Of a stretch of 28,320 nt of DNA, positions 1,162-28,146 are shown in pieces. The notes under the pieces are model-generated. The model was not told the DNA's origin. It was given only the letters and a program-made list of their open reading frames with translations, and did not search any database. A program made the position numbers and the translations under genes. The stretch comes from a virus. The DNA is taken from IMG/VR virus record IMGVR_UViG_3300014204_000586; one strand, given 5' to 3'. Each line of letters opens with the position of its first letter. The stretch's first letter is position 1.

Positions 1162-1165
1162 TGAA

Positions 1166-2989: not shown

Positions 2990-2993
2990 TAAC

Positions 2994-5096: not shown

Positions 5097-5171
5097 TTAT
5101 CACAATAAGGTTAAAATCCAGGAAGTTGCACAGCTGACAAATAACACAAGAAGGAAAGTGAGTGTATCAAT

Positions 5172-8100
5172 ATGGCAGGTGAAACAAGATTTATAACTTG
5201 GTCAGGCGGTCCGGCAGGCGATTATATTACCGACGGTACGCACGACGAAGCCGAAATTAACACGGCTATGAGCTGGTTGAATTCAAACCCAGGCAATATA
5301 TTAATAATGCGTGGAACTGGAAACGTAAACAGTCCCCATTATTATAATATCGAAGCTCAGGTAAAAATAGCAAATAACATGAAGTGGACCGCAGAAGCCG
5401 GCGTTATGCTATGGGTACCTGATGGGGCGTGTGGAACTAATACTACTAATTGCGTTTTTCCGAACGGTACGCCAGTCATAGGCCAACTTAATACATATGT
5501 TGCACATGTTGAAATATCAGGGTTTTCTATCTCCGGAAACTGCAATAATCAAAGTACTGTCTTAGGATATGCTCACGGGGTTTTGCAGTCTACAGGCTCC
5601 GGAGTAGAAAGGCTATTTGGATTCAAAGGCGTAAGCGGGACCGGCTCCAAATGTACAGACATCTATATCCATGATATACACGCCATGGATTCATGGGGCG
5701 AGTTTTTACATCTGATGTACGGCAGGGGAGAGATTAAGATATCTAACTGCCTAGCTGAAAATCATCAGCATGATTGTGTTATGTTAATAGAGGTCGATGG
5801 AGACGGAAACGAGATAACCGACTCTACCTTCTACGGGATAACTGACGGATGCGTAAGGCTTGATAACTGTAAAAAGATACCTGTTCACGATTGTTATATG
5901 TTAGCATACTCCGGGACCCATAATAACGGTGCTACTAAATACGGTCATAACGGTATGCAAATAGCAAACGAGAGTAACAAAACACTCCTAACAAATGAAA
6001 TATCGGTTTATAACTGCTATTTCGAAGGTCCTAATCTTGACGGTATTTGGCTTAATGACCAGTTGAAAACAGCAGGCTCAGCCGATCAGTCAGTATATAT
6101 TCATCATTGCAAGTTTTCTAATCAGATTGCATGGGCAGATTGGGCTTATTGGTCAAGTGGAATTACTTTAGGCGCATGGGGTAACGGTGTAAAAATCGAG
6201 AGCTGTACATTTGACGGATGTTACGCCAACGGAATACAGGTTTATAGCGTCATATCCTCCGCCCAAACCCATAAACTAGAAATCGAAAACTGTAATATTA
6301 TTAATACAGTTGGGTTAAGGGCAGGTTCTTCTAATGGTCCATCGGTTCAGGGATGGGGACTTTATAACGCGGTTCCTACAAAAATGTCAATAGTTGCCAA
6401 AAATAATTACTTAGCTGGCAACATAAACGGAGATTATAAAAATGTAACTCCTGTTACCTCATCTACTTCTTTGATATCAGGAGCAGAGCCGGGCGGAGGC
6501 TCGACTATTGATGATGATGATTCAGATTATGTCCCGCCTGAATCATCCGGAGTTTATATTCCTGCATCTGCCTCTATAATCGATACTGACTTCAAATATG
6601 TACCTAGAGCGGATGATGATTTCAGAAGTTATATAAACGGCGTTCCGTTCGAAATGGTTAGATTTCTGCCTGTAGGCCAGCGCGGTATAAGTGAATCTGA
6701 AAGCCCTTCTTTCGAAGGAACTAATTTAGGGGATCTCGGGCTCAAAGGCTGCGAAATTGAACTCACGGGTTTAGCTGCCGATATCGACGAGTTGTATAAA
6801 ATAAAGGCTGCCTTTGCACAAGAGGGCAGGTCATTCTTAGAGCTTGGAGGTTCTAGGAAAGGATACTTTGTTAGCGGTCTAATGTCAACTCATGGATCAA
6901 CTGAAGATATGAGTCAGGGAGACATAGCCGGCGAAAACATCATATTCAATGCTACAGTTAAAACAGAATTCCCTTATCAAGAAAAGATGATTAAGGCAGT
7001 AAGGGACCACTATGTCAATAGTTCTTGTATAATCTCATCCGATGATATACACAGTGGCAATGTAGTTAAGAATAATAACTTTTTAAATTGGTCAGTGCCT
7101 CAAAACCTCGTATGGGAAACTATACCCGGTCCTTCATCGGCTGACCTTCAGAATGTTAAATACTCTCCTGAACTTCAAATGTGGATGGCAGTCGGAAACA
7201 GTGTTTCAGGAGCAGACCCGCAGTGTATTATCTCCGGACGTTCGGTTATTCCGGATCATAGCGGATATAAAAATCATGGGCTGGCTTCCGGAGCTTGGGA
7301 AAGCGTGACCGGCGGCGGGGTGTCATTCAATGGTATTGATTCATACGTAGCAATACCAGACCCGGAAATAACAAACACTTCCAATTATTCATTATACAGC
7401 CGGTTTAAAGTTGGTGCTTCTGGTGTTATTCAATCTTTAGTAGGTATAGCGAAATCAGATTCAAACGTTCAAATGTGTAATATTACCCTGAATACCTCAA
7501 ATCAATTATTACTACAGCATAGGGATGATGCTGGACATATTGCGAATGTATCCTCATCAATTAATGTAAATGATGGGTTAGTTCATGAGGCAGTAGGCAC
7601 CAGAGACGGAGACACGTTTACTATATACCTCGATGGGGTCCAGGTCGGGCAGGTAATTAACTCCACTATCGGGACCACAACCACGGATAGAGCCGCAATT
7701 GGATGTTTACCGAGGCTAAGCTCCCGGTATTTATTTACCGGGGAAATATACGAAACTAGGATATTCTCGGATACTATCCCATCTGGAAGTATATCTACTG
7801 CCGGCACCAGGACAACAAACCGTGTAAGCTCCTTTAACAGTCCAACAACTGAAGAGCCGGGTAATTCTTGGATAACTCCGCCTTGGTGGTCTGCCTTATC
7901 AAGTAACCGGAATAACTGGAAAGGTCTTGAGTGGTGCCCAGATTGGGGCATGTGGGTTATTTCGTCGGTAACTTCCTATTTAGGGGTTGATGATAAAATT
8001 GCCTATACTGCCGATGGGGCAGAATGGTTTATAGTAACTACTCCGAGCGACTCGAATTCATGGGCTAACCTTCTATTTATTCCGCCTAACTCGACGGTTC

Positions 8101-10784
8101 CGAATGGCCGGCTTATGGCATTTGCTCAAAGCGGCACAGGTAACAGGATTTTATATTCAGATAATCAGTTATCATCCTATACAACCATAGCAGGACCCGC
8201 CGACGTACTTTCTAATAACTGGTTAAGCTCTGCATATTCCCAGGAACTTAACCGTGTTGTTGTTGTAGCTTTCGGCGGATCAGCTTCTAAAAGGGTTATG
8301 TATTCCGATGATTGCGGATCTAACTTTATTTCTGTGGTTAGTCCTGCTCAGCAATGGACCGGCGTTATATGGGCAAAAATGCCGAGTATGTTTATGGCTT
8401 GTTCCCAGGACGGGACCCAACAAATCATGACATGTGCCGACGGTATAAGCCCGTGGACACTTCAAACAACCCCATACGCTGACGCTGTAACGCCCAGTGG
8501 GTCTAGTACTGTCGTTCGTACTCTTGCCGCTCAGTCAAATGTAGGATGGAATTACACTACGTTAGCGACAGATTACAGCGCAAGTGTAAACCCAATGATT
8601 GAATTTGTCCTGCCTGCCTCCGGGCTTACTGCCGGGAATCATTACCGTATAGATAATGTACATGCAAGACTTCGGATAGTTAGCGCAGGTCCAACAGCGT
8701 ACTTAAAAGTAACTGCTCAGACAGCGACTATATCCGAAACAACTATTAAAGAATGGACCGAAACCTCAACAGTTTACCAGGACAAAAGCTATGATTGTGT
8801 TTTCGAAGGAGCAGCAGACGAGGCCGTAACAATCAGGTTTTATCTTAAAACTTCCAATGCATCAATTAGAGCCGGAGCCGATAACATGGGTTATGACGCT
8901 TCGGAAATGACAAGCGGCTCATCTACGATAACATATTCCCGTAATCTATGGCGAGATATTTGTTATTCGGATGAGTTGAACCTCGCGGTAGTTGTCTGCT
9001 ATGACACATCATTAACTAATAATGTCATGTATTCTCAGACCGGGACTAATTGGTATATGGTCCGATCGATAGCTGCAGCTCAGTGGTGGTCAGTTGAATA
9101 TTCACCGGAAACTAGAACATTCATTGCAGTAGGTCAAACAGGCTCAGAAAGGGTTATGTTAGCCAGGGGTTACGGTGAACTTGTTGATATAGCGCCAGAC
9201 AACTGGACAAAGGTAACCGATGGCCAGGAGGCAAGCGACGAGCATACAAATGGCAGTGTTTATACCTACATGATTAAAGGTAATGGAGTAGACGAAAACC
9301 CAGGATACATTTATCAAAAATTACCGTTTGACTCCATGTATGACGCAGGCGAGCTTTATATTTTAAAATCGTCGGCTTATGTAGAGGGTTTGACCTCCGG
9401 AGCTTTCGCGGTTGACATCTTTGCAGGTGGAACAATCGTAAAGGAATTGATATGGGACGCTAACACCAGCGAAATAGACACAAAGGAAATACGGTTTATC
9501 TTTGATACCATACCGCTAAATGTTTATGCCCGGATACGTGGAATAAATACACCAAATGACGGAGCGTATTTTTATAACTCGAACATTATAGTATCAAAGG
9601 TTCAGGAATATGAAAATGACCAGGTCGGCGCGCCAATAGCGACCTTTGGATATAGGGACGCAACACCAAATATTAAATTAAAGGGTGTGGGCACTAATAC
9701 AATGTCCGCAGACACAAACCGGATAATATCAGACAAGGATTACGATACTTATACAACTACCTCAACAAGTTATGGAGATCCAATAAAAACAATAACCTTG
9801 CCTGCCCTTACAGGCGGCTCTAAATATCAGTTAGATGCTTTATCATTTGACTTTAAAACCAATAGCACGGGAGCGTATATATATTGTAAAACTACAATTC
9901 AGGCACCTTCGCTTTTTGGTGGAGCTGAGCGCGATATAAGCATGTATACAACCAACGGGACCAGCTATGAATATAGGCGTTACAAACTGCCTTATCCTTT
10001 GATCTCAGAGACTAACGAGCAGGTAATATTTAGGTGGTATATCCGGATCTCAAAAACCGGTTACACTGGATATGTCAAAAATGCATGGTATCAGTTTACA
10101 GAGTTGCTAGATGTAAACACTACTAAAAATGTTCCAATCTACCTATATAATACGAATGATTCCCGGATAGTTTTAACATGCTGTGATAGTCTCCCGCCAG
10201 GTTACCAGGTAGAAATAAATAAAAACGGTACCGGTAGCTATAGGTATATAGAATCATTTGCAGATGATAATTTCATATCAAATGCTTATGAGGTAGTAGG
10301 TGGTGTTTCCAGAGACGAAACAGAACAAACGCTTTATATACCCGATGGAGGTTCAATAACATTTCCAATGAGTACCTATTATCCTGTTTCCGGAGTTCCG
10401 TTTATAAAAATGCTCGTTGTATCGGGAATACCTCAGATTTCTATAGCTGTGGATACTGGAAGCGGACCCGGCACTTTTTACGAAGTTGATTCTAACACTT
10501 CTGTATCTGTAGAGAATGCCGAAGTTATCAGACTTCTTGACAATGCAGCAGACTTAACACTGAGGGGTGAAAGGAAGTTCTATGTAAAGATATCCAACTT
10601 GTCCGGGGCTTCTTGTACATTCGGTCAAATGCTTATTTACTCAACTCTTGACACTATCGACGCAAGAAGGTTAAAAATATATTCTGCAATTAATCCCAAT
10701 GCAATAGCGGTAGAGGTCGGCGGTGATGGTAAATGCAGTGCCGTATTATCAATAGACTACAGGGATACCCAAATAATAACATGA
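5172..10784 (+). CDS. Giant multidomain tail-tip protein (1870 aa): N-terminal right-handed beta-helix plus an evolved Dit-like scaffold carrying CBM-like, beta-propeller, LamG and other inserted domains
   Basis: Sits directly after the tape measure gene and before the hub. Shows beta-helix repeats, a LamG motif (TIYLDGVQVG...FTGEIYETRIF), seven W/Y-S-x-E-L blade repeats, and Dit-like segments (PNIKLKG; LPPGYQVEIN; NAIAVEV...IDYRD). Confidence 0.8.
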   Translation: MAGETRFITWSGGPAGDYITDGTHDEAEINTAMSWLNSNPGNILIMRGTGNVNSPHYYNIEAQVKIANNMKWTAEAGVMLWVPDGACGTNTTNCVFPNGTPVIGQLNTYVAHVEISGFSISGNCNNQSTVLGYAHGVLQSTGSGVERLFGFKGVSGTGSKCTDIYIHDIHAMDSWGEFLHLMYGRGEIKISNCLAENHQHDCVMLIEVDGDGNEITDSTFYGITDGCVRLDNCKKIPVHDCYMLAYSGTHNNGATKYGHNGMQIANESNKTLLTNEISVYNCYFEGPNLDGIWLNDQLKTAGSADQSVYIHHCKFSNQIAWADWAYWSSGITLGAWGNGVKIESCTFDGCYANGIQVYSVISSAQTHKLEIENCNIINTVGLRAGSSNGPSVQGWGLYNAVPTKMSIVAKNNYLAGNINGDYKNVTPVTSSTSLISGAEPGGGSTIDDDDSDYVPPESSGVYIPASASIIDTDFKYVPRADDDFRSYINGVPFEMVRFLPVGQRGISESESPSFEGTNLGDLGLKGCEIELTGLAADIDELYKIKAAFAQEGRSFLELGGSRKGYFVSGLMSTHGSTEDMSQGDIAGENIIFNATVKTEFPYQEKMIKAVRDHYVNSSCIISSDDIHSGNVVKNNNFLNWSVPQNLVWETIPGPSSADLQNVKYSPELQMWMAVGNSVSGADPQCIISGRSVIPDHSGYKNHGLASGAWESVTGGGVSFNGIDSYVAIPDPEITNTSNYSLYSRFKVGASGVIQSLVGIAKSDSNVQMCNITLNTSNQLLLQHRDDAGHIANVSSSINVNDGLVHEAVGTRDGDTFTIYLDGVQVGQVINSTIGTTTTDRAAIGCLPRLSSRYLFTGEIYETRIFSDTIPSGSISTAGTRTTNRVSSFNSPTTEEPGNSWITPPWWSALSSNRNNWKGLEWCPDWGMWVISSVTSYLGVDDKIAYTADGAEWFIVTTPSDSNSWANLLFIPPNSTVPNGRLMAFAQSGTGNRILYSDNQLSSYTTIAGPADVLSNNWLSSAYSQELNRVVVVAFGGSASKRVMYSDDCGSNFISVVSPAQQWTGVIWAKMPSMFMACSQDGTQQIMTCADGISPWTLQTTPYADAVTPSGSSTVVRTLAAQSNVGWNYTTLATDYSASVNPMIEFVLPASGLTAGNHYRIDNVHARLRIVSAGPTAYLKVTAQTATISETTIKEWTETSTVYQDKSYDCVFEGAADEAVTIRFYLKTSNASIRAGADNMGYDASEMTSGSSTITYSRNLWRDICYSDELNLAVVVCYDTSLTNNVMYSQTGTNWYMVRSIAAAQWWSVEYSPETRTFIAVGQTGSERVMLARGYGELVDIAPDNWTKVTDGQEASDEHTNGSVYTYMIKGNGVDENPGYIYQKLPFDSMYDAGELYILKSSAYVEGLTSGAFAVDIFAGGTIVKELIWDANTSEIDTKEIRFIFDTIPLNVYARIRGINTPNDGAYFYNSNIIVSKVQEYENDQVGAPIATFGYRDATPNIKLKGVGTNTMSADTNRIISDKDYDTYTTTSTSYGDPIKTITLPALTGGSKYQLDALSFDFKTNSTGAYIYCKTTIQAPSLFGGAERDISMYTTNGTSYEYRRYKLPYPLISETNEQVIFRWYIRISKTGYTGYVKNAWYQFTELLDVNTTKNVPIYLYNTNDSRIVLTCCDSLPPGYQVEINKNGTGSYRYIESFADDNFISNAYEVVGGVSRDETEQTLYIPDGGSITFPMSTYYPVSGVPFIKMLVVSGIPQISIAVDTGSGPGTFYEVDSNTSVSVENAEVIRLLDNAADLTLRGERKFYVKISNLSGASCTFGQMLIYSTLDTIDARRLKIYSAINPNAIAVEVGGDGKCSAVLSIDYRDTQIIT

Positions 10785-10793
10785 GGTCATAAC

Positions 10794-11963
10794 ATGATAA
10801 GATTTTATGACTACTCAGCAAGAATACAGAAGCTCACAGGGGAGGTTTATTATCCTCCTGTAGTTTCATTTAGTACAGTCGATAACCTGCCATTTCAGAA
10901 CTCTCCGGAGGCATCTATAGAGGTCATAGCGAATGAGAATTTATCAGGCATACAAAACATTACCCCAATAGAATTTGATGATATCATAAGGCTGAGCGTA
11001 TCTATCAGGTATCATCCGAAGGATGTACCAGTATATGTTAATCTATTTGAGGGAAAAGTTCAGAACATATCTAAAAATTATGGAGAACTGAACACGGTAA
11101 CACTTCAATGTGTAGGCCATATTTATGAAGTGTTCGACACTCTGGAAGTATTCGGCCATTCATGGACAAGTACAGTAGACGCAAAAACAATTATATCAAC
11201 CCTTATGAGCGAGTCTCATAAGCTCAGCCGGGTAGAGTATGACGCTTCGTATGTTGATTCCGGTGTGACACTTCCAGAATTTAACGTCGAAGCTGAAAAA
11301 ATGTTTCTGAATCAGGTACTTTCTAAAATAGAAGAAATATCCGGGTATACAAAATACTTCGATACTGTCCAAATATACGATAGATGGGGCATACTGCAAC
11401 ATATTTACCTTACATTTAAATCAATATCAGCAGCGGTAACGCATAAATACGAAATTAACGAAGGTTCTAACAGGCTTATTGCTGCCTCGGTTGACTCCAT
11501 AGGCGAGGATGTAAAAACCTTTAGGTATGTCGTTGGAGGAACCGACGAGGTAACGGGGACCACATACCACGCCGACGTATCAGACTCGGTGGCAGTTTCT
11601 ATACATGGTCCTCGTTATGCTCTTGATACCTACTCGTGGATCATGTCAAACTCATTATGTACTCAGGTAGCACAGGGTTTACTAGATGGTTCAAAAGATC
11701 CATATGTCTCTATATCATGCACTTTAGAGGGAACACCAGACGCGCACAAGGGAGACCTTGTTAAAGTTGATTTTCACACACTGGATTTAAAGGGAGTTGC
11801 AGTATCCGGGAATTACCGCGTCGCAAAGGTGCAGCATCGTTTATCTGAAACAGGAGCTTATACAACTCAGTTAGACCTGAACAGGGTAAAAATGACTCCA
11901 ACGGAATATACGATAAAGTACATTTCACAGAAATTAAATACTGTATTGACAAACCAGGCATAA
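10794..11963 (+). CDS. Baseplate hub / Tal-like (gp27 / Mu gp44 / late control D-like) protein
   Basis: C-terminal GTPDAHKGDLVKV...GNYRVAKVQHRLSETGAYTTQLDL is the hub-family signature. 389 aa, follows the Dit-like gene. Confidence 0.75.
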   Translation: MIRFYDYSARIQKLTGEVYYPPVVSFSTVDNLPFQNSPEASIEVIANENLSGIQNITPIEFDDIIRLSVSIRYHPKDVPVYVNLFEGKVQNISKNYGELNTVTLQCVGHIYEVFDTLEVFGHSWTSTVDAKTIISTLMSESHKLSRVEYDASYVDSGVTLPEFNVEAEKMFLNQVLSKIEEISGYTKYFDTVQIYDRWGILQHIYLTFKSISAAVTHKYEINEGSNRLIAASVDSIGEDVKTFRYVVGGTDEVTGTTYHADVSDSVAVSIHGPRYALDTYSWIMSNSLCTQVAQGLLDGSKDPYVSISCTLEGTPDAHKGDLVKVDFHTLDLKGVAVSGNYRVAKVQHRLSETGAYTTQLDLNRVKMTPTEYTIKYISQKLNTVLTNQA

Positions 11964-12137: not shown

Positions 12138-12398
12138 TTATGGTCTTGCAAGCTTCACATCCTCCACAGGTACCCATAGATCAGACTCGATATTAACAAA
12201 TCTTACCCGGATATGTTTTATAGGGTTCTTATTGACGGTTAGGGTCATAGGCTTTGAAATAATCATCACATAAGTTTCTTCCAGGGAATCAAGGTGATTT
12301 TCTTTTACAAACTCCTCTCTTATATTCATAATTACGCCAGGGCTAAAAGAGGACAACCGCGACACGTTGAACGATACATATTTTTTAGCTTTGCTCAT
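12138..12398 (-). CDS. Hypothetical protein (86 aa), possibly SH3-like fold
   Basis: GGTGA SD upstream. Ends in ..RVRFVNIESDLWVPVEDVKLARP, reminiscent of SH3/Tudor-like barrels. Confidence 0.65.
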   Translation of the reverse strand: MSKAKKYVSFNVSRLSSFSPGVIMNIREEFVKENHLDSLEETYVMIISKPMTLTVNKNPIKHIRVRFVNIESDLWVPVEDVKLARP

Positions 12399-12402
12399 AT
12401 AC

Positions 12403-12660
12403 TCACCTAAACTTTTTATTGGCTTCTGCTTTAGTTTTTATCCGGTCTAATGTATCCCACCAGGATACCGGCAATAACTCCAACTCTTTAAAGATGTCAA
12501 TTTCCGGGCTATCATCCGCCCTGATGCTGTCATTTATGCCTTTCTGAGACACAGGCAACCATTTATTTTTATCCTCATTGAAATCTATTTCAATCCATAA
12601 ATGAGATAAGGGAGGTAAAAATACCTCGGGTTTATCTCTTTCTGGCTGGTATTCGTTCAT
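12403..12660 (-). CDS. Hypothetical protein (85 aa)
   Basis: Start overlaps the stop of the upstream gene (TGATG). Part of a tightly packed minus-strand operon. Confidence 0.65.
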   Translation of the reverse strand: MNEYQPERDKPEVFLPPLSHLWIEIDFNEDKNKWLPVSQKGINDSIRADDSPEIDIFKELELLPVSWWDTLDRIKTKAEANKKFR

Positions 12661-13394
12661 CAGATCGCTATTTCAAATGTTCGTCCGGCTTTCTTTTGGA
12701 CCTCAGCAATTTCTTTACGGGCAGCTACCAGGGCGTTACCTGCTGCTTTCATAGTGGATATAATCCACTTGAGGTCTGAGCCGTCAAACAAGGAAGAACC
12801 GATAACAAGCCACTTTGTACGAAGGTTTGTACGTATGCAAAGTTCTTTTCCATTATCCGGGGACCTCTTGACAGTATAGAAGGCTACATTTCCATATCTG
12901 TAAATGTCCGGGAGCTCTTCGAAAGGCAATACATTATGTACTGATTTAACCCTGAACAGCAGGTTACTTTCATGAGGGACCATTTCAAAAGTAATCTTAC
13001 ATACCGAATGATCATTTGATAACTGATTTCTCAGTTCTGCATTCCTTGAGAGCCCTTTAGGACCGCATGAATCGGCAGATACGACGGAGCCAGGTGAACC
13101 AGTTGATTTACTTTTATCTTTTGCTGTAGCTTCTCTGAGTGGTCCGAGCGGTGACACGGTGAGATACTTGTCCATGAGTTCTAAAGTCTCATCCGCCAGG
13201 ACCGGAACAAACATAACCTTTGGTGAAGGGTTTAAAGCTACATTAACCTGAGAGCCTTCGAGTTTGCTCACGAAATCCCGAGCCTGCTTTACCATTTCAT
13301 CAAATGGGTTATTTTCCTCTAATGTAACCTGTCCGGTTAAAAGTTTGTTGTTGTTCTCAAGAAGTTCTTTAATGATTGTGTCTATACCATTCAT
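12660..13394 (-). CDS. Hypothetical protein (244 aa)
   Basis: Long ORF, translationally coupled to the next gene. No recognisable motif. Confidence 0.75.
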   Translation of the reverse strand: MNGIDTIIKELLENNNKLLTGQVTLEENNPFDEMVKQARDFVSKLEGSQVNVALNPSPKVMFVPVLADETLELMDKYLTVSPLGPLREATAKDKSKSTGSPGSVVSADSCGPKGLSRNAELRNQLSNDHSVCKITFEMVPHESNLLFRVKSVHNVLPFEELPDIYRYGNVAFYTVKRSPDNGKELCIRTNLRTKWLVIGSSLFDGSDLKWIISTMKAAGNALVAARKEIAEVQKKAGRTFEIAI

Positions 13395-13454
13395 ATATTA
13401 TCATATCCTCGATTTTTTGTTTATTTCAGTTGATTTTCTGTTATTTTTCATCAA

Positions 13455-14108
13455 TTAATTGAAGTTTTTAACTAAAAACTCTTGTATTTTGCAATGTTCT
13501 GTTTTTATGCCATTGCCTGAAGAAATAAGTTTAGAGACATAAAGCTCATTTTTACTTATTACCTCTGGCGGGATAGTGTCCAGGAAGTCTATAAAATCCC
13601 TCTCAGTACTGCATCTACGTACACTAACATCGAGGCAGTTAAGGGACCAGCTTTTACTAATCGGCTTGTAATACTGCCAATACTTAGACATTCCGGAATT
13701 ACCGGGCACTGGATCATGTGTTTTTTGTCTGCTCAGTGCGTACCTTATTTCGTGTTTAACCTTCGGTCTTTGAAGCTTAATAGCGTTTTGGGTAGTATCA
13801 AGACTGCTTTTACAATAGGAATACATCCTATTGAACAACTCATCCGGAGTATGTAAACTTCCGCTGTCCTGCCCATCCGGTGTATATATTTCGATGCTGT
13901 CAACTATGCAAGAATCGCTTATAACATAAGATTCTGAAAACATAGCTACGAAATACTTTTCGAAATTCTCAACGGGCTTTATAAACCAGTCAAAGAACTT
14001 GAACTTTCTTAAATTAAGTTCACCATCGGGCTGAATCAATACTATCTGAAGGATAGTTAAATTAGATCCGTCGGACGGTGGTTTTATTATTCCTTTGTAT
14101 CGGTCCAT
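13455..14108 (-). CDS. Hypothetical protein (217 aa), first gene of the leftward operon
   Basis: GGTGATATC-ATG SD. TATA box at 14152-14159 upstream. Confidence 0.75.
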   Translation of the reverse strand: MDRYKGIIKPPSDGSNLTILQIVLIQPDGELNLRKFKFFDWFIKPVENFEKYFVAMFSESYVISDSCIVDSIEIYTPDGQDSGSLHTPDELFNRMYSYCKSSLDTTQNAIKLQRPKVKHEIRYALSRQKTHDPVPGNSGMSKYWQYYKPISKSWSLNCLDVSVRRCSTERDFIDFLDTIPPEVISKNELYVSKLISSGNGIKTEHCKIQEFLVKNFN

Positions 14109-14221: not shown

Positions 14222-14344
14222 ATGCAGAATTTGAAGAAAATCACTATAGGCAAATATGCCTTTGAAATGCCGACAGAATCAATAACAGGCTGGCTTATTT
14301 TCGGGCTGGCTGCATTGGGTCTAGGATGTTTCATTTTATCATGA
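14222..14344 (+). CDS. Small single-pass membrane protein (40 aa, MQNLKKITIGKYAFEMPTESITGWLIFGLAALGLGCFILS); not in the ORF track
   Basis: GGTGA SD at 14211-14215, ATG 14222, TGA 14342-14344. Hydrophobic C-terminal half. Confidence 0.7.
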   Translation: MQNLKKITIGKYAFEMPTESITGWLIFGLAALGLGCFILS

Positions 14345-14350: not shown

Positions 14351-14641
14351 ATGACCACGAACAGCTATAACGATACCCTGAATATAATTTTCGGGGATAA
14401 CCGACGGGTAAACATCTTGCGTTTACTTTATGAAATGAGTACGCAGGGAGACCCAATATATATAAGAAAAATAGTTACGAGGACGGGATACACTCCCCAG
14501 ACAGTTACAAATCATATAAACGAGCTTGAAAAGTATGGAGTGATAAAACGAACACAGCGCGAAGGTTCGCCGACAAAATACATAGACCTCAATGAAAATG
14601 TTGAGGGCGTGATAGATCTTATTCAAGGTTTGAAACTATGA
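14351..14641 (+). CDS. Winged-HTH transcription regulator (ArsR/MarR-like)
   Basis: RRVNILRLL...IRKIVTRTGYTPQTVTNHINELEKYGVIKR...TKYIDLN is a typical wHTH. GAGGT SD. Confidence 0.85.
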   Translation: MTTNSYNDTLNIIFGDNRRVNILRLLYEMSTQGDPIYIRKIVTRTGYTPQTVTNHINELEKYGVIKRTQREGSPTKYIDLNENVEGVIDLIQGLKL

Positions 14642-15975
14642 TCGACTGTTCAGGCATCTCCACAGCTTCACAACTTCAAAAGTACTTTGATAAATACGGA
14701 GCTGAAACATATCAATTTAGTAAGAATCAAAAGATTGCTGTAGATACTCGGATGAATATAAACGGGGCGTATAACCTAAAGGGGTTTTCTGCATATGCAG
14801 ATATGCCCATTTTCAAGTTAAACCCGAGAGTATCCGAAAAAGACTTCGGTATACAGGAAGCAATTATAACCATCAATGGGGCAGGACCTTCTATAGAAGG
14901 TATCCGCTTTGATGGGAATGACGTAAACCAACTATTTGAAAGAGGAGATGGTTACCACAACTTCATAAAACTATACAAGACTACAGGCTTCAGAGCAGAC
15001 CGGTTATATGTCGAGAACTCACTCGGGGATGGAATCCGGGCACAGTTTGCGGATGATACCGAAATATCAAGAATGGGAGTTCATCAATGTGGGCATGATG
15101 GAATATACTTGCAGGAATCTAAAAATGTAATTGTTTCGGGATGTGTGTTTCATATCCGGACCAATTGTGCTACAAGGTTCAGAGCTTGTGAGAATGCCCA
15201 ATTTTATAATAATTGGGTTGAAAATCAAATCCATACAGGCATAAGCACAGGGCCAGGTCTCCAACTTGAGAATTCAACAACCTCGACAACTGCAAAAGAT
15301 TACAGCATATTTAACAACTACTTCAAAAACACTGATGGTCCGGGAATATGGGCTATTAATACATATGCTGCAAGTCCGGACGCTGCAACAGGCTTGAACA
15401 TCTACCAAAACACGTTTGAGAATTGCGGCCAGGGAGGGCACTATAAGAATGTCACAAGTACAGGCGGTATTTGTGTCGATGGTTGGAAGGCAGGAATCTA
15501 TCAAAACCTTTTCACGGGTTGCAGCTCTGGCGTGACTATAGGTCCTTGGGTTTCAATAACTCCGGCTGGTTCCGGGTATCAAGTAACAGTTAAAAATAAT
15601 ATGTTTGCTCACTGTGCAGCAGGCAAGCAGGTCTATTCATCGGCTGGTACAGGCATAGACAAAACTTCTAAAGTTAATACAAAAGTTTCATGTTCTGAAA
15701 ATTGGTTCTATGAAAATAAAAATGACTATTTCGGGACGGGAGAGACGACACAGATAAACCCATACCTAACGCTAAATAATCATCTATATGTAATAGGTGA
15801 TAAATCAAGCGTCGAGGGTAGGGGTATAGGCGCAAAAGGTGTAAACAACACATATGAGTCAACCGATGTTGAAAAGGTCGAAATTAGAATATCAAAGATT
15901 CTGAAGGTAAGATACTCGGATAAATACCCGAATGTTCTTCCTGAAGGTGTGATAATATGGAAGCGTAAATCATGA
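14638..15975 (+). CDS. Free-standing right-handed beta-helix protein, disaggregatase-related-like (putative polysaccharide depolymerase)
   Basis: Motifs GDGYHNFI, NSLGDGIR, GHDGIY, RTNCATR, GPGLQLE, GPGIWA, GGICVDGW resemble Methanosarcina disaggregatase-related beta-helix domains (recalled, not searched). Confidence 0.7.
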   Translation: MIDCSGISTASQLQKYFDKYGAETYQFSKNQKIAVDTRMNINGAYNLKGFSAYADMPIFKLNPRVSEKDFGIQEAIITINGAGPSIEGIRFDGNDVNQLFERGDGYHNFIKLYKTTGFRADRLYVENSLGDGIRAQFADDTEISRMGVHQCGHDGIYLQESKNVIVSGCVFHIRTNCATRFRACENAQFYNNWVENQIHTGISTGPGLQLENSTTSTTAKDYSIFNNYFKNTDGPGIWAINTYAASPDAATGLNIYQNTFENCGQGGHYKNVTSTGGICVDGWKAGIYQNLFTGCSSGVTIGPWVSITPAGSGYQVTVKNNMFAHCAAGKQVYSSAGTGIDKTSKVNTKVSCSENWFYENKNDYFGTGETTQINPYLTLNNHLYVIGDKSSVEGRGIGAKGVNNTYESTDVEKVEIRISKILKVRYSDKYPNVLPEGVIIWKRKS

Positions 15976-16541
15976 ACGAAGAGAAAACATATAGTTCTGA
16001 CCCAAAATATGTATTCACAACTAGATACAGTGATTTTGAGCTAGATACTAATAGACATCCAGAAGCTACGGTTACCTTACCGGCAAAAGACGGTTACGAC
16101 CTTAAATTGTTAGAACTGACTGTAAATATGTGTACTCAGTCAATAGGTAATACTGCATATTGTACATATCTTTTAAAAATCGATGGTGCAATATTTAACC
16201 CCAATTTAACACTAAAGACTACCTCAACTGGATACACTCCGATAAAAGCTTCAATTAGTAAGCAGATCAGGACCTCAAATGATGTAACCTTTTATTTACA
16301 TCTCAAAACCTCAAACTATGCTTCTAAAGCTATGGTAAAAAACTTTCAGATAAAATACAAATATGTAGCAAAAACCGTAAACGTGGCACCAGTCACACCA
16401 GAACAGGACACAAGCGAGGCGGAAAATTTGGAATATATATTATATATTTCCGGATCAGAAACGGATGTGGAAGCGGCAATTTCTGAACTTAAAAAAGAGT
16501 TTGGAGATAAAGCCACAGTGGAAACATATTCAAAAAAGTGA
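15972..16541 (+). CDS. Beta-sandwich protein paralogous to two inserted domains of the giant tail protein
   Basis: TLPA, GNTAY, TTSTGY, VTFYLHLKTSN align with tail-protein segments VLPA/GPTAY/TETSTVY/VTIRFYLKTSN and TLPA/TTNGTSY. Confidence 0.65.
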   Translation: MNEEKTYSSDPKYVFTTRYSDFELDTNRHPEATVTLPAKDGYDLKLLELTVNMCTQSIGNTAYCTYLLKIDGAIFNPNLTLKTTSTGYTPIKASISKQIRTSNDVTFYLHLKTSNYASKAMVKNFQIKYKYVAKTVNVAPVTPEQDTSEAENLEYILYISGSETDVEAAISELKKEFGDKATVETYSKK

Positions 16542-16545
16542 TTCA

Positions 16546-16791
16546 ATGGCAAAGGACAGGTACAAATTTAAAAGGGATAAATCAAATATGGCTCCGGGTT
16601 GTAACGTGCCCGGATACAAGCCAAAAAGGAATAAAAAACGGAGCAAGACCAATATAAACACAGAAAAGGTGAAATATATAACTCCAATCTGTCCCTTGGG
16701 TGGTAAATGTATTCAACCCCCAGGAGAGGACGGTTATAACCCTGCAAACTGTAAGAAATGCTCTAAGATGATCGAGGGTTTATCATGGTAA
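16546..16791 (+). CDS. Basic Cys-rich small protein (81 aa; likely start ATG 16546)
   Basis: Lys/Arg-rich N-terminus, CPLGGKC...CKKC. Start lies just after the upstream stop. Confidence 0.6.
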   Translation: MAKDRYKFKRDKSNMAPGCNVPGYKPKRNKKRSKTNINTEKVKYITPICPLGGKCIQPPGEDGYNPANCKKCSKMIEGLSW

Positions 16792-17195
16792 CGGCAGAAA
16801 AATTACCTGTAACTGAGATATCAGTTAAGCAGCGCGGCAGAAGGATTAAAACGGGTCTCATTCTAAAGGTCCCCATATGCCACTTAGGACAGTCAGAGTT
16901 TAACGAGCTCGTCAAACATAACCCAATGTACACTCAGGTACTTTTGTCTTATATACGCGAGCCTGAGAAGCTTAAAAAGGTCATTCCAGAAAAAGGCTTT
17001 GATGAGTATAGCTTATGGGACATTCAAAGATATATACACATTTGGAAATTCACAAGTAAAAAAGGTAATAAGTCAACTGTAATTGCTCCAAACAAGAAAG
17101 AGGCTATCAAGGCTTCCAGACTTCCAAAACACGAAATATTATTCTTGACCAGGTATAACAGAAACGGAAAAGCATTTCCGATTAAAAGATGGTGA
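16785..17195 (+). CDS. Hypothetical basic protein (136 aa)
   Basis: GAGGG SD, overlaps the upstream stop, in operon context. Confidence 0.7.
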   Translation: MVTAEKLPVTEISVKQRGRRIKTGLILKVPICHLGQSEFNELVKHNPMYTQVLLSYIREPEKLKKVIPEKGFDEYSLWDIQRYIHIWKFTSKKGNKSTVIAPNKKEAIKASRLPKHEILFLTRYNRNGKAFPIKRW

Positions 17196-17204
17196 GGCGA
17201 GTAC

Positions 17205-17660
17205 ATGAGTTACAAATGCACAGACAGACTTAACGCGGACGAGAACGGAAATATCACATGGAAAAATCAAGATAAGGTTTTTCTTTCTAAAAATCTTGCA
17301 TACCGAGACCAATTTGTTAAAAAAATAGTATCGGGTGCTACAAAATCCAAAACGAATAAAAAAACTTACATTGACCGGGAAGGCCGGCCATTTGTACTTA
17401 AAATGACTAATGATTACATCAGGCAAAACCCGACTACTTTTAAGAAGGGTAATTTCTTCCTGTATAGGGACCAGCATAAAAAGCTCAAAACCGAGAAAGG
17501 CTATTATGTGTTCATAGTCTTTAAAACACCTTCCGGATATGACCAGATGAAAATTGATTCAGATGCTTTCTTTGTTCGTGAGCACATGGAATGTATATGT
17601 TGGCAGAGTGTTCAACACCTGGCCGAGGAAAGAGGCACTGTGGAGGCGTTCGAGGAATGA
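17205..17660 (+). CDS. Hypothetical protein (151 aa), possibly degenerate PD-(D/E)XK-like fold
   Basis: GGTGAGG SD. The segment KGNFFLYRDQHKKLKTEKGYYVFIV resembles archaeal viral nuclease-fold proteins (weak). Confidence 0.65.
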   Translation: MSYKCTDRLNADENGNITWKNQDKVFLSKNLAYRDQFVKKIVSGATKSKTNKKTYIDREGRPFVLKMTNDYIRQNPTTFKKGNFFLYRDQHKKLKTEKGYYVFIVFKTPSGYDQMKIDSDAFFVREHMECICWQSVQHLAEERGTVEAFEE

Positions 17661-18148
17661 GTAAGAACACTAATAACGGCCATATAAAGTCTAATTACTA
17701 CAGGAACTTATATAACACAACTGCAAAAGAAACAGGGTTATATCAAGTTGAACTTAGCGAGATCTTACTCAACGATCTCGTTTTTAAAGCTAATTATTCA
17801 TTAGATAACTTGATTCCCGAGTTCAAAAAAATATATACCCATGTTCAGGACCCGGTTAATAAACAAAAGCTTGAGCAATACGCGGAGGCAGATAAAACCG
17901 TTAATATTGCTATCCGGGTTTCCTCACTTAGTTTAGTAAGATACATTGCCAGCAAAGCAAACGTGACTCATGAAAGTGTTATCATTTCCTTATTAGGTGA
18001 GAACATTATAAACTGTGATGACTTCGATACTCACCTATGGAACATTTTAGACTACTATTATTATATGTACACTTTGAAAAAATGGCAGTACATAGAATTC
18101 CTAACTAAGATACCAGGCTACAGCGAATATAGGAGTAACAGGAGATGA
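17657..18148 (+). CDS. Hypothetical protein (163 aa; likely start ATG 17657), with an internal RHH-like segment
   Basis: ATGA overlap with the upstream stop, GGAGG SD. VNIAIRVSSLSLVRYIASKANVTHESVIISLL has a strand-helix-helix pattern. Confidence 0.65.
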   Translation: MSKNTNNGHIKSNYYRNLYNTTAKETGLYQVELSEILLNDLVFKANYSLDNLIPEFKKIYTHVQDPVNKQKLEQYAEADKTVNIAIRVSSLSLVRYIASKANVTHESVIISLLGENIINCDDFDTHLWNILDYYYYMYTLKKWQYIEFLTKIPGYSEYRSNRR

Positions 18149-22431: not shown

Positions 22432-22968
22432 ATGGGTAAAATATTAACTACGAATATGCGCCGAAAAATGGAAAAGGAAGCAAGAAGAAGAGAAGCAGTT
22501 AGGCTATATTTCGACGAAAATAAAAATCAAAAAGAAATAGCTCTGGAATTGGGTATATCAGTACCTACAGTTTCAGTATATCTTAAACAGACCCGCGAAG
22601 CATGGGCAGAAAGGGCAAACGTTACAATCAATGACCATGTTAACCGGGAGCTAGCAAATATTGAAAAGCAGGAAGCTAATATATATCAATGGCTAGACTT
22701 CTTTAAGCTGGACCCGGACGACCCACAACAAACATCCAGAAACTCACCCGAGGCGAGGAAATGGCTTGAGTTATGGATCAAGTTAGCAGCCAGAAAGGCC
22801 GCGTTATTAGGATTAGATAAGGCTAAAAAGTTCGAAGTTGAATCCGGGCAACCTGTAATAATAAACCTGCTTCCTGTAGATGGAAGCCAGGACGACAGGC
22901 CGGAAATAATAGAGGGTAAATTTACGGAAGTAGACGAAGAAACAGAAGGGGACGAAGAGGACTATTAA
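22432..22968 (+). CDS. terS: Terminase small subunit (HTH-containing)
   Basis: N-terminal HTH (NQKEIALELGISVPTVSVYLKQ), LLGLDKAKKFEV motif, acidic tail, coupled to the large subunit by TAATG. Confidence 0.75.
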   Translation: MGKILTTNMRRKMEKEARRREAVRLYFDENKNQKEIALELGISVPTVSVYLKQTREAWAERANVTINDHVNRELANIEKQEANIYQWLDFFKLDPDDPQQTSRNSPEARKWLELWIKLAARKAALLGLDKAKKFEVESGQPVIINLLPVDGSQDDRPEIIEGKFTEVDEETEGDEEDY

Positions 22969-24293
22969 TGAATAGTGAGCTTGAAAGTTTCAAAGGTGGA
23001 TTGCCAGGGCACAGGTATATTCAAAGGAATACTTGTTTCTGGAAACACTTTGAAAAACCACAAAAAACAAAAATATTTTACGGTGGGGCGGGCTCCGGTA
23101 AGTCCCTTTCAATAGCTCAATATTTTTTAATGAAACTGTGCTCAAACGATGGCCGAAGAAGGGCAATATTAAGAAAGACATTTCCCTCAATGGCTACTAC
23201 TACATATTTAGTCTTGAAAGATATATTGACTGATTGGGGAGTTCCTTATAAGGAAAATAAAACAAAGCATTTTTTCGAAGTAGGCAGGAATAGACTTTAT
23301 TACCTATCCCTTGACAATCCGGAGAAAATAAAGGGCGGCGAGTTCGAAGACATATGGTTAGAAGAAAGCACGGAATTTACAAAAGATGATTATCTTCAGC
23401 TTAACATCAGGCTATCCAGGGACCGCCTAAGCGAAAATGTACATTTGTTTATGTCCTTTAACCCCATAGATGCTAATCATTGGTGTGTGAAGCTTGTCGA
23501 AGAGGCATTAAACGATAGGAAAAACTTTCTGGTAATGCATTCGACTTATCATGATAATATCAAATTCCTGAGTAATACATTCATAAGAAGTCTTGAAAAG
23601 CTCATCAATACCGATGATAATTATTATAGGATTTATTGTTTAGGCGAGCCAGGTATTCTTAAAAATATCATATACTCAAATTATATAATTGAAAATCCTG
23701 TAGAATGGCCGGATTATATCTATTCGGCTCCTACAGCTTATGGTCTTGACTTCGGGTTTAACCATCCTACGGTATTATCTCAGATCTATATGTTTGATGG
23801 GGTCCCTTACATTATTGAAAAGTACTGTAGGGAGCAGAAAACAACCGAGGAGCTTTATATTTGGATGAATGAAAATGAAATTTCACATACTTCCGAAATA
23901 TGGGCAGATTCGGCCAGACCGGACCAGATAGAATATCTATGTGAAAGTAGGGAAATTGGAGGAATTCAATATCAGGGCTTCAATGTTCTGCCAGCCAAAA
24001 AAGATGTAATAGCAGGCATTGACTCGGTAAAGTCTCGGAGGCTCCATATATCGTCAGAGTCTCCTAGGATCATATCCGAAATAAAGGGCTATAAATACCG
24101 CGAAAATAAAGATGGTGTGGTCCTCGAGGAGCCAGTAAAGTTTAAGGACGATGCAATGGACAGTATTAGATATTGTATCTTTTCTGCCGATTGGATAGAG
24201 GGCGATATAATTACAGAAAACCGTCCAAAAATGAAAAATTCACCTTCAGATGTTTACCAAATCGATAGCGGGAAAGGCGTTTACCAAATGTAA
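22968..24293 (+). CDS. terL: Terminase large subunit (PBSX-like)
   Basis: Walker A YGGAGSGKS, Walker B IWLEESTEF, coupling motif SFNP, RNase H nuclease GLDFGFNHP and DDAMDSIRY. Confidence 0.95.
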   Translation: MNSELESFKGGLPGHRYIQRNTCFWKHFEKPQKTKIFYGGAGSGKSLSIAQYFLMKLCSNDGRRRAILRKTFPSMATTTYLVLKDILTDWGVPYKENKTKHFFEVGRNRLYYLSLDNPEKIKGGEFEDIWLEESTEFTKDDYLQLNIRLSRDRLSENVHLFMSFNPIDANHWCVKLVEEALNDRKNFLVMHSTYHDNIKFLSNTFIRSLEKLINTDDNYYRIYCLGEPGILKNIIYSNYIIENPVEWPDYIYSAPTAYGLDFGFNHPTVLSQIYMFDGVPYIIEKYCREQKTTEELYIWMNENEISHTSEIWADSARPDQIEYLCESREIGGIQYQGFNVLPAKKDVIAGIDSVKSRRLHISSESPRIISEIKGYKYRENKDGVVLEEPVKFKDDAMDSIRYCIFSADWIEGDIITENRPKMKNSPSDVYQIDSGKGVYQM

Positions 24294-24747: not shown

Positions 24748-24774
24748 TATAGGGGTAAAGCGTAAACCCCTATA
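24748..24774. promoter_or_regulatory. 9-bp inverted repeat overlapping the portal start codon
   Basis: TATAGGGGT (24748-24756) / ACCCCTATA (24766-24774). The last base is the A of ATG. Confidence 0.55.
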
Positions 24775-27098: not shown

Positions 27099-27126
27099 AA
27101 AAGAATTAAAAAATATATAATTGAGA

Positions 27127-27228
27127 TCAATACTGTTTTTCAAAGAGCTCTTTAAGCTCCTCACTTTTTTTATGTCTCAATGCATCATACACGATATAAG
27201 CCAGGAACATTACGTATTTAATGTTCAT
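27127..27228 (-). CDS. Small protein (33 aa, MNIKYVMFLAYIVYDALRHKKSEELKELFEKQY); not in the ORF track
   Basis: ATGA overlap with the upstream gene stop. Confidence 0.5.
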   Translation of the reverse strand: MNIKYVMFLAYIVYDALRHKKSEELKELFEKQY

Positions 27229-27428
27229 TCCAAAACCGACTCCTCGAATTTTTTAAAAGGTACAATTTTATTTGGATCTATGTGTTTGAATATTGGCCGT
27301 TTAAAGGTTCTCCCACAGCAGATACATTTATAATTATGCTGCCGGGGAGAATGTGCAACATTGACAGACCCGCAAACGGGGCACGTTTTTCTATCCCGTT
27401 CGCTGTCGTCTTTCCGTATACCTCGCAT
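27225..27428 (-). CDS. Zinc-ribbon protein (67 aa)
   Basis: CPVCGS...YKCICCGRTF motif, GGTGA SD. Confidence 0.75.
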   Translation of the reverse strand: MRGIRKDDSERDRKTCPVCGSVNVAHSPRQHNYKCICCGRTFKRPIFKHIDPNKIVPFKKFEESVLE

Positions 27429-27432
27429 AATA

Positions 27433-27856: not shown

Positions 27857-27902
27857 AAAATCACCATTATAATTTACGTCCCATTAATATAAATGGTTCT
27901 GC

Positions 27903-28127: not shown

Positions 28128-28146
28128 TATTTATCAGCTCCATATA

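What the first reader, a model, noticed from the sequence alone, without database searches (positions are those of the whole stretch)
14638..16541. Free-standing two-gene copy of the tail adhesin's modules outside the structural operon
Seen: ORF 14638-15975 aligns by eye with the tail beta-helix (DSWGE/NSLGD, HQHD/CGHD, TDGCVRLDNC/TNCATRFRAC, GMQIAN/GLQLEN, YF..GIW, FDGC/FTGC). The coupled ORF 15972-16541 aligns with tail inserts A and B. Both lie directly behind the wHTH regulator in a non-structural operon and have no obvious signal peptide. Inference: a two-tier matrix-remodelling system, with one depolymerase on the virion for entry and a second, separately regulated enzyme plus binding partner made in the cell. 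The second could serve for egress from aggregates (an endolysin substitute in a host lacking pseudomurein), for superinfection exclusion by receptor removal, or as an accessory tail spike. I know of no description of such a paired system. This is the strongest candidate for a novel system in the window.
Basis: partly seen in the sequence, partly recalled or inferred. Interest (0 to 1): 0.85.

Follow-up and report, generated by a model that had tools for sequence, protein, structure and literature searches.

The report
Split depolymerase cassette in Methanosarcina virus
A tailed virus of Methanosarcina-type methanogens carries, besides the sugar-matrix-cutting domain on its tail, a separate and widely conserved two-gene cassette for a second such enzyme plus a small sugar-binding partner; this probably helps the virus move through the glue that holds host cells in clumps, and no archaeal virus is known to do that.

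Summary
The first 130 residues of ORF 15972-16541 (P0002) are homologous to two tail segments (hhalign 97.8% and 93.6%). They are old paralogues, not a recent copy: free-standing helices form their own clade, and so do the tail inserts.

The helix-plus-partner pair recurs in about 14 distinct viral loci, down to 25-30% identity. In two relatives the partner slot holds a Disaggr_repeat/CBM96 carbohydrate-binding domain instead. So the cassette is a split disaggregatase-like enzyme with a swappable binding subunit.

New here: both proteins end in a homologous linker-plus-tag of about 35 residues. Cellular homologues carry export signals and the viral proteins do not.

Best reading (0.45): a tail-independent matrix depolymerase released at lysis. 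An accessory virion spike (0.3) is not excluded. Receptor removal during lysogeny is disfavoured.

Soluble and multiple depolymerases are known in phages, so this is a new variant of a known kind. Unchecked notes from this scan report multi-paralogue disaggregatase-like helices in at least seven other virus genomes.

The parts
14222..14344 (+). 40-aa peptide with a C-terminal transmembrane helix; first gene of the rightward operon
   Evidence: Read from the sequence. The hydropathy scan finds equivalent 40-41-aa peptides in L004 and L007, and a 40-aa gene is called at the same place in L003. Function unknown.
14351..14641 (+). 96-aa winged-helix (MarR-like) regulator; its stop overlaps the start of P0001
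   Evidence: Pfam MarR 1.3e-6 and HTH_24 1.2e-5. Orthologues lie upstream of the helix in L003, L004-L006 and L007/L008. Absent from the cassette in G160, L012 and L014.
14638..15852 (+). P0001 residues 1-405: right-handed beta-helix of the Disaggr_assoc family, the candidate matrix depolymerase
   Evidence: Pfam. AlphaFold model with pLDDT 85. Foldseek neighbours are PL6 alginate lyases, AlgE4/6 epimerase, GH28, RbmB and phage depolymerase spikes. Keeps the motifs shared with cellular homologues: GDG, CGHDG, RTNxxxR, PGxQxEN, GPGIW.
15853..15972 (+). P0001 residues 406-445: low-confidence linker plus a short C-terminal tag
   Evidence: pLDDT 39-54. Tag homology to the partner tags: 12.9 against a null of 6.2 +/- 1.4, 1 of 150, using all members; 25.3 against 7.6 +/- 1.8, 0 of 200, probability 83%, using Cys-type members only.
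15972..16376 (+). P0002 residues 1-135: jelly-roll (TNF-like/CBM-like) beta-sandwich, the candidate carbohydrate-binding domain
   Evidence: Model pLDDT above 90 over this part. VIA-align Z 10.9 to the Pgp3 C-domain, 10.2 to the TNF-like lectin PLTL, 9.4 to CBM36, and 9.4 and 9.1 to fibre-tip domains. Homologous to tail 1123-1244 and 1522-1646.
16377..16538 (+). P0002 residues 136-189: disordered acidic linker (about 138-149) and C-terminal tag (strand, helix 163-177, strand)
   Evidence: Model. The tag is conserved across the partner family and is also found on a Disaggr_repeat protein in G160 (E 1.3e-5).
5499..6245 (+). Tail protein residues 110-358: the beta-helix segment that aligns with P0001 81-333
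   Evidence: hhalign and Pfam Disaggr_assoc 275-429. Motifs have diverged here: GEF, HQHD, ITDGCVR, NGMQIAN, LDGIW.
8538..8903 (+). Tail protein residues 1123-1244: partner-type jelly-roll domain (insert A)
   Evidence: hhalign probability 97.8%, P 1.2e-12. BLASTP hits from P0022 and P0026 at 6e-11 and 2.6e-14.
9735..10109 (+). Tail protein residues 1522-1646: partner-type jelly-roll domain (insert B)
   Evidence: hhalign probability 93.6%, P 2.1e-7. Groups with insert A in one clade, SH-aLRT 99.

Best explanation
The two ORFs are a conserved, movable cassette of tailed Methanosarcinaceae viruses. It encodes a split disaggregatase-like enzyme.

P0001 is the catalytic subunit: a right-handed beta-helix of the Disaggr_assoc family, probably acting on the acidic methanochondroitin matrix. 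P0002 is a separately encoded carbohydrate-binding subunit with a jelly-roll fold. Each ends in a flexible linker and a homologous tag of about 35 residues. I infer that the tag serves for assembly or docking.

Both proteins are made in the cytoplasm without export signals. I therefore infer that they reach their substrate only when the infected cell bursts. They would then clear the matrix around the burst site, so that progeny can leave the aggregate and reach the S-layer of neighbouring cells. The paralogous helix on the tail would serve entry.

Shown: the homologies, the folds, the conserved pairing, the swappable binding domain, the shared tag and the lack of signal peptides. Inferred: the substrate, enzymatic activity, association of the two subunits, the timing, and that the proteins are not part of the virion.
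For: - Family and fold of P0001. It keeps all motifs shared with 15 cellular homologues.
- Fold of P0002.
- The helix-plus-partner pair occurs in the window, L003, L004-L006, L007/L008, the P0011/P0020 contig, L012, L014, L015 and L040-L044.
- In G160 the partner slot holds a Disaggr_repeat/CBM96 domain carrying the same tag (Pfam 1.9e-81). In L010 the 66-aa fragment after the helix begins with the same Disaggr_repeat-like motif. Cellular disaggregatase-related proteins combine these two domain families.
- Fusion evidence: a helix and two partner-type domains lie in one tail polypeptide.
- Shared tag.
- P0001 has no N-terminal virion-anchor domain; the helix starts at residue 1.
- The 8 cellular homologues whose N-termini I examined have signal or anchor sequences; the viral proteins have none.
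- The cassette changes position between genomes: after the wHTH here, after portal/MuF in L012, L014 and L049, and after the tail in G160.
- Small N-terminal-TM proteins recur just downstream in L012, L040, L045, L048 and L049.
- Aggregated M. mazei cells resist a Methanosarcina virus (PMC12369344).
- phiNIT1 PghP and LevP are a precedent for burst-released soluble depolymerases (PMC6966330).
Against:
- In the window the pair heads a long rightward operon behind a regulator, next to what look like early genes. That would be an odd time to make an egress enzyme.
- The cassette always lies close to tail or head genes.
- P0002's fold also resembles fibre-tip receptor-binding domains, and partner-type domains are part of the tail protein. 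A virion-attached role is therefore equally compatible with much of the evidence.
- Helices without a partner gene still carry the tag, so the tag is not only a helix-partner handshake.
- The catalytic residues of this family are not known, so 'active enzyme' rests on motif conservation alone.
Confidence: 0.45

Rival explanations
1. Accessory virion spike. P0001 and P0002 are structural proteins that dock onto the tail or baseplate through their C-terminal tags. This gives the particle a second depolymerase and a second receptor-binding head, and so a broader or two-step host recognition.
For: - In G160 the cassette follows the tail genes, with only one small reverse-oriented gene between. In the window it starts 2.7 kb after the last tail gene.
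- P0016 sits at the end of a tail module in L011.
- P0002's fold matches fibre-tip and tail-fibre binding domains at Z about 9.
- P0001 resembles the phage depolymerase spike Kp32gp38 and several tailspikes.
- A tag shared by two different proteins, each behind a flexible linker, suits docking onto a common site. The tag persists on helices that have no partner.
Against: - There is no N-terminal anchor domain of the kind used by known tailspikes.
- The tag HMM finds no related element in the tail proteins.
- The tail protein already carries a helix and two partner-type domains.
- The cassette is separated from the tail operon by oppositely oriented genes in both the window and G160. It lies after portal/MuF in L012, L014 and L049.
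Confidence: 0.3
2. Lysis module proper. The helix attacks the infected cell's own envelope (S-layer glycans or the matrix) from within, after small virus-encoded membrane proteins open the membrane. This would be the functional counterpart of holin plus endolysin in a host without pseudomurein.
For: - In G160 the cassette lies between the tail genes and the integrase, where temperate siphoviruses of Gram-positive bacteria keep their lysis genes (own knowledge).
- A family of 100-146-aa proteins with an N-terminal TM helix lies 0.2-1.1 kb downstream in five distant loci.
- A conserved 40-aa TM peptide heads the operon in the window's family.
- A catalytic subunit plus a separate binding subunit recalls the two-gene lysin PlyC (own knowledge).
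Against: - Methanochondroitin lies outside the S-layer and is not what holds the cell together, so cutting it should not lyse the cell.
- No holin is defined for any archaeal tailed virus, and small TM ORFs are common in viral genomes. I ran no control for their frequency.
- The window itself has no such TM protein downstream of the pair.
Confidence: 0.12
3. Lysogenic conversion or superinfection exclusion. The provirus expresses the pair from the regulator-controlled promoter. The enzyme strips matrix or receptor from the lysogen's surface, which blocks adsorption of related viruses or changes aggregation.
For: - The pair sits directly behind a wHTH next to a divergent promoter region, like immunity-region genes of temperate phages.
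- In G160 it lies at the provirus end beside a toxin-antitoxin pair and the integrase, a typical place for cargo genes.
Against: - Neither protein has a signal peptide or TM segment in any family member examined, while the 8 cellular Disaggr_assoc proteins whose N-termini I examined have one. The enzyme could not reach the surface of an intact cell by the usual route.
- The wHTH linkage is confined to the window's own virus family.
Confidence: 0.06
4. Non-enzymatic binding proteins. The helix has lost activity, and both proteins only bind polysaccharide, for example as decoys or scaffolds.
For: The catalytic residues of the Disaggr_assoc family are undefined, so activity cannot be read from the sequence. 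Many beta-helix proteins are adhesins.
Against: P0001 retains every motif that is near-invariant in the cellular homologues. The tail-borne helix has diverged at several of them. If either of the two has lost activity, the tail copy is the more likely one.
Confidence: 0.04

Closest known systems
Methanosarcina mazei disaggregatase and the cellular 'disaggregatase-related' proteins (Pfam Disaggr_assoc PF08480 and Disaggr_repeat PF06848)
   Same: P0001 is a member of PF08480 and shares the GDG, GHDG, RTNxxxR, PGxQxE and GPGxW motifs with 15 cellular proteins from two Methanosarcinaceae genomes. In relatives G160 and L010 the partner gene supplies the Disaggr_repeat domain.
   Different: The viral helices are deeply divergent: 42-79 bits against 199-316 bits for the cellular ones. 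They fall on the far side of a branch with SH-aLRT 99. They lack the N-terminal export signal. The binding domain is on a separate polypeptide and is usually an unrelated jelly roll. Both subunits carry a C-terminal tag that I did not see in the cellular proteins.
Phage tailspike and capsule depolymerases (for example Klebsiella phage KP32 gp38; tailspikes of CBA120 and Det7)
   Same: A right-handed beta-helix acting on surface polysaccharide, often followed by a C-terminal beta-sandwich domain. Kp32gp38 appears among the structural neighbours of both P0001 and P0002. Phages with several depolymerases are well known (PMC6966330).
   Different: No N-terminal particle-binding domain. The beta-sandwich is a separate gene product. 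The gene lies outside the tail operon. Trimer state is unknown. The host is an archaeon.
Soluble, non-structural phage depolymerases: PghP and LevP of Bacillus phage phiNIT1
   Same: My leading reading has the same logic: an enzyme made in the infected cell and released at burst, which removes the extracellular polymer so that progeny reach neighbouring cells (PMC6966330).
   Different: No sequence or fold relationship was found or expected; PghP acts on a polypeptide capsule and LevP is a levanase. The resemblance is in how it works only, and the timing and solubility of P0001 are untested.
Two-component endolysin PlyC (PlyCA catalytic subunit plus PlyCB binding subunits); own knowledge
   Same: Catalytic and cell-surface-binding functions are encoded by separate adjacent genes.
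   Different: PlyC cuts peptidoglycan and its subunits are unrelated in sequence and fold. Complex formation between P0001 and P0002 is not shown.
Carbohydrate-binding modules inserted in distal tail proteins ('evolved Dit') of lactic-acid-bacteria siphophages; own knowledge
   Same: The two partner-type jelly-roll domains inside the 1870-aa tail protein resemble binding modules inserted in tail-tip proteins.
   Different: No homology was tested. Here the same domain family also exists as a free-standing tagged protein.

Membership tests
Pfam Disaggr_assoc (PF08480) / right-handed beta-helix (PF13229) | Score above the curated Pfam cut-off | tested here: met
   P0001 scores 42.1 bits against a cut-off of 22.6 for PF08480, and 47.7 against 25.9 for PF13229.
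Pfam Disaggr_assoc (PF08480) / right-handed beta-helix (PF13229) | Right-handed parallel beta-helix fold | tested here: met
   The AlphaFold model has pLDDT 85 and is a continuous helix over residues 1-405. Foldseek hits to PL6, AlgE4/6 and GH28 helices have probability 1.00.
Functional Methanosarcina disaggregatase | Disaggr_repeat and Disaggr_assoc domains in one secreted protein | tested here: not met
   P0001 has no Disaggr_repeat domain and P0002 has none either. No signal peptide. In G160 and L010 the repeat domain is supplied by the neighbouring gene.
Functional Methanosarcina disaggregatase | Cleaves methanochondroitin and disperses aggregates | not testable with these tools
   Needs an enzyme assay.
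Phage tailspike depolymerase | N-terminal virion-attachment domain ahead of the helix | tested here: not met
   The helix cap starts at residue 1 in the model, and no extra N-terminal domain is present.
Phage tailspike depolymerase | Gene within the tail morphogenesis operon | tested here: inconclusive
   In the window it is separated from the tail operon by a minus-strand block and a regulator. In G160 it lies next to the tail genes, and in L011 it is at the end of a tail module.
Phage tailspike depolymerase | Homotrimer that is part of the virion | not testable with these tools
   Needs proteomics or a structure.
Carbohydrate-binding module / TNF-like lectin (P0002 N-domain) | Jelly-roll beta-sandwich fold | tested here: met
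   Z 10.9 to Pgp3, 10.2 to PLTL lectin and 9.4 to CBM36, with 108-127 residues aligned at rmsd 2.7-3.3. These Z values stand only modestly above the background the tool states.
Carbohydrate-binding module / TNF-like lectin (P0002 N-domain) | Binds a sugar ligand | not testable with these tools
   The only support is indirect: a CBM96-like Disaggr_repeat domain replaces it in G160.
Two-component lysin (PlyC type) | The catalytic and binding subunits form a stable complex | tested here: inconclusive
   The single complex prediction returned no verdict. The shared tags are compatible with association but do not prove it.

The most novel reading that the evidence does not exclude
The C-terminal tag would be a previously unrecognised assembly module of archaeal viruses. 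It would join a catalytic beta-helix to interchangeable carbohydrate-binding subunits (jelly roll or Disaggr_repeat/CBM96), giving a non-covalent depolymerase with exchangeable specificity. Together with the nearby small membrane proteins, this cassette would be the first egress system described for tailed viruses of archaea whose envelope is an S-layer plus methanochondroitin.
Probability: 0.2. Interest if true: 0.8.

Novelty: new variant of a known kind. Interest (0 to 1): 0.6.

Why it matters
How tailed archaeal viruses cross or leave envelopes that lack pseudomurein is largely unknown (PMC10791045). Methanochondroitin aggregates protect Methanosarcina cells from a known virus (PMC12369344).

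A conserved virus-encoded cassette, paralogous to a tail-borne domain, gives concrete and clonable candidates for matrix degradation by an archaeal virus. It can be tested directly with recombinant protein on Methanosarcina aggregates.

Such enzymes could also be useful for dispersing Methanosarcina granules in digesters or for genetics. The split design with a swappable binding subunit and a shared tag is a small, well-defined question in protein assembly.

Tried and rejected
- Complex prediction of P0001 with P0002, using both alignments: score 0.17 against a mark of 0.32. No verdict, so it counts neither for nor against binding.
- blastn of the region against phage records: no match.
- The window's own assembly is not held. 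The nearest record, G001, is a near-identical 14.9-kb fragment and adds nothing.
- BLASTP of the tail protein against itself: no internal repeat detected. The A/B relationship shows only through profiles.
- The exhaustive profile search with the 6-sequence partner alignment found 17 clusters, all free-standing proteins of 163-193 aa, and no tail protein at E <= 1e-3.
- The word-based search for longer proteins with the partner domain found nothing. This is weak evidence.
- PHROGs: no family for P0001 or P0002.
- PDB sequence search with the helix profile: no hit.
- ESM Atlas feature search for P0002: best score 0.85, not usable.
The scan with P0026 alone found nothing.
- The bacterial-type promoter/terminator scan gave fewer sites than shuffles and does not apply to archaea.
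- Tag HMM against all ORFs of the fetched loci: the helix C-termini appear only below significance (E 0.37-6). The tag claim therefore rests on the profile-profile test.
- The Medvedeva et al. 2023 compendium of methanogen viruses is not held, so I could not check whether it mentions these genes.
Full report
**Setting.** The window is most of the genome of a head-tailed archaeal virus.
- Terminase large subunit at 22968-24293 (Pfam Terminase_3, 9.7e-37), followed by a 533-aa portal candidate (24774-26375, no Pfam hit) and a weak Mu-F-like match.
- A tail block at 3-11963. It includes a 700-aa protein in the tape-measure position, the 1870-aa tail protein and a 389-aa protein that hits PHROG tail and baseplate families.
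- A four-gene minus-strand block at 12138-14108.
- A long plus-strand operon that opens with a 40-aa membrane peptide, a 96-aa winged-helix regulator and then the two ORFs of the finding.

The host is a member of the Methanosarcinaceae. The Disaggr_assoc family rings only in Methanosarcina acetivorans among 14 control genomes. A related provirus is integrated beside enolase in a genome of the same family as Methanosarcina sp. DH2.

**The observation.** P0001 (14638-15975, 445 aa) is a Beta_helix/Disaggr_assoc protein, and the N-terminus of the tail protein belongs to the same Pfam family.
- Pairwise similarity is weak.
- A profile of nine P0001 relatives aligns residues 81-333 with tail residues 110-358.

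P0002 (15972-16541, 189 aa) has no Pfam family. Three steps establish its homology to the tail:
- Its six closest relatives give two co-linear hits in the tail protein, far above a column-shuffle null.
- An exhaustive profile search added 17 clusters of free-standing proteins of 163-193 aa.
- With these added, the two hits become tail 1123-1244 (probability 97.8%, P 1.2e-12) and tail 1522-1646 (93.6%, P 2.1e-7).

Distant partner proteins also hit insert A by plain BLASTP at 32-35% identity. Both homologies are therefore real.

**Paralogues, not a recent copy.**
- In a tree of 31 helices, the viral proteins lie on one side of a branch (SH-aLRT 99) opposite 15 cellular Disaggr_assoc proteins.
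- Within the viral side, the nine free-standing helices form one clade (SH-aLRT 96), apart from the tail-borne ones.
- In the domain tree, the eight tail inserts (A and B from four viruses) form one clade (SH-aLRT 99), apart from the 23 free partners.
- Several branches are long and the roots are only midpoints, so I claim no direction of transfer.

**The pairing is conserved and movable.**
- The arrangement wHTH, helix, partner holds in relatives at 83%, 63% and 43% identity, with the same genome layout.
- At 25-30% identity the helix and partner are still adjacent in L012, L014, L015 and L040-L044, but the cassette sits elsewhere. In L012 and L014 it follows portal or Mu-F-like genes. In L043 and L044 it lies about 1.5 kb after a large protein and a 495-aa tail-type helix.
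- In the G160 provirus it follows the tail genes, with one small reverse-oriented gene between. Next come a ParE-type toxin pair and the integrase.
- Most of these genomes also have a helix in the tail operon. A 'tail helix plus separate free helix' arrangement is thus a recurrent trait. Unchecked notes of this scan report several disaggregatase-like helices in at least seven other virus genomes.

**What the two proteins are.**
- P0001 models as one continuous right-handed helix (residues 1-405) with a poorly defined 40-residue tail.
- Its structural neighbours are enzymes acting on uronic-acid polysaccharides, together with phage depolymerase spikes. That fits methanochondroitin, which contains uronic acid.
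- It keeps every motif that is near-invariant in the cellular homologues. The window's tail helix has changed several of them.
- P0002 models confidently as a jelly roll (1-133), a disordered acidic linker and a small C-terminal element.
- The jelly roll resembles TNF-like lectins, CBMs and fibre-tip binding domains at Z 9-11.
- The most telling result is from G160. The gene after the helix encodes a Disaggr_repeat/CBM96 domain (1.9e-81) joined to the partner's C-terminal element. In L010 the 66-aa fragment after the helix begins with the same Disaggr_repeat-like motif.

The partner slot therefore holds interchangeable carbohydrate-binding domains. Helix plus partner together reproduce, on two polypeptides, the domain families of cellular disaggregatase-related proteins.

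**A shared tag (new here).**
- Both families end in an acidic or proline-rich linker followed by strand, helix, strand.
- For the lineages that keep a cysteine at the end of the first strand, five helix tags against sixteen partner tags score 25.3 (probability 83%, P 9e-6). The null is 7.6 +/- 1.8, with 0 of 200 shuffles reaching the real score.
- With all members the signal is weaker, 1 of 150.
- In nine pairs the cysteine is present in both proteins or absent from both. This may reflect a single evolutionary event.
- Helices without a partner gene still carry the tag. It is therefore a general assembly or docking element, not only a handshake between the two proteins.
- The tag HMM finds nothing similar in the tail proteins.

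**How it most likely works.** The 8 cellular homologues whose N-termini I examined begin with a basic and hydrophobic export signal. The viral helix, the partner and the tail protein do not. The proteins are thus made in the cytoplasm, and I infer that they meet extracellular polysaccharide only after the cell opens or as part of a particle.
- I favour (0.45) a tail-independent depolymerase released at burst. It would clear the matrix so that progeny can leave the aggregate and reach neighbouring cells. This is analogous in logic to PghP and LevP of phage phiNIT1 (PMC6966330). It also fits the protection that aggregates give M. mazei against a virus (PMC12369344).
- An accessory virion spike docked through the tags (0.3) fits the nearness to tail genes and the fibre-tip-like fold, but no N-terminal anchor is present.
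- A true lysis role (0.12) is suggested by recurrent small membrane proteins next to the cassette and by its position in G160.
- Surface stripping during lysogeny (0.06) is disfavoured by the missing export signals.

**Limits.**
- I obtained no expression data and no verdict on complex formation.
- The catalytic residues of this family are not known.
- All relatives are uncultured contigs or one provirus.
- Searches of the held papers for disaggregatase or methanochondroitin together with viruses found no description of these genes. The main survey of methanogen viruses is not held.

**Verdict.** This is a new variant of a known kind, the virus-encoded polysaccharide depolymerase. It stands out for its archaeal host, its split design with a swappable binding subunit and shared tag, and its coexistence with a tail-borne paralogue.

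Noticed in passing
window 14222-14344: A 40-aa peptide with a C-terminal transmembrane helix opens the operon ahead of the wHTH. It is conserved in L003, L004 and L007 despite 43-63% divergence of the neighbouring genes. Function unknown.
   Followed up: partly
L046:6141-6662, L048:2015-2485, L049:6059-6454, L045:4932-5396, L012:4427-4627: A DUF1699 (PF08004) protein (E 1e-38 to 1e-50; a fragment in L012) lies beside the free-standing helix in five distant viral loci. In those loci it takes the place that the wHTH has in the window.
   Followed up: partly
L012:7141-7500, L040:8838-9161, L045:4147-4895, L048:4229-5032, L049:8626-8928: A family of 100-146-aa proteins lies 0.2-1.1 kb downstream of the cassette. 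They have an N-terminal TM helix, a YGY-K-KG motif and a helical C-terminal part (alignment A4, 18-34% identity). They are holin-like in form only, and no background frequency was computed.
   Followed up: partly
window 5499-6245: The tail-borne helix has diverged at motifs that are near-invariant in the cellular and free-standing homologues (GEF for GDG, HQHD for CGHD, ITDGCVR for RTNxxxR). It may be the copy that binds rather than cuts.
   Followed up: partly
L019 (G160:C10) 15276-17879: The end of the related provirus has a 276-aa truncated-looking third beta-helix, a DUF2683/ParE toxin-antitoxin pair and a tyrosine integrase with a zinc ribbon, next to the cellular enolase gene.
   Followed up: partly
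L012:8631-11028: A 152-aa protein with a weak T4SS_pilin match (1.5e-5) directly precedes the 642-aa tail-type beta-helix. This locus lacks an obvious capsid or tail block in the 12.5 kb seen.
   Followed up: no
L014:7366-8475 and 4015-4290: An RtcB RNA ligase gene and a RyR-domain protein lie inside a provirus-like element that carries the cassette, next to a cellular cation ATPase gene.
   Followed up: no
window 27100-28320: After the Mu-F-like gene the GC skew turns negative and only short ORFs are seen on either strand. In L012, L014 and L049 this position, after portal or MuF, is where the helix cassette sits.
   Followed up: no
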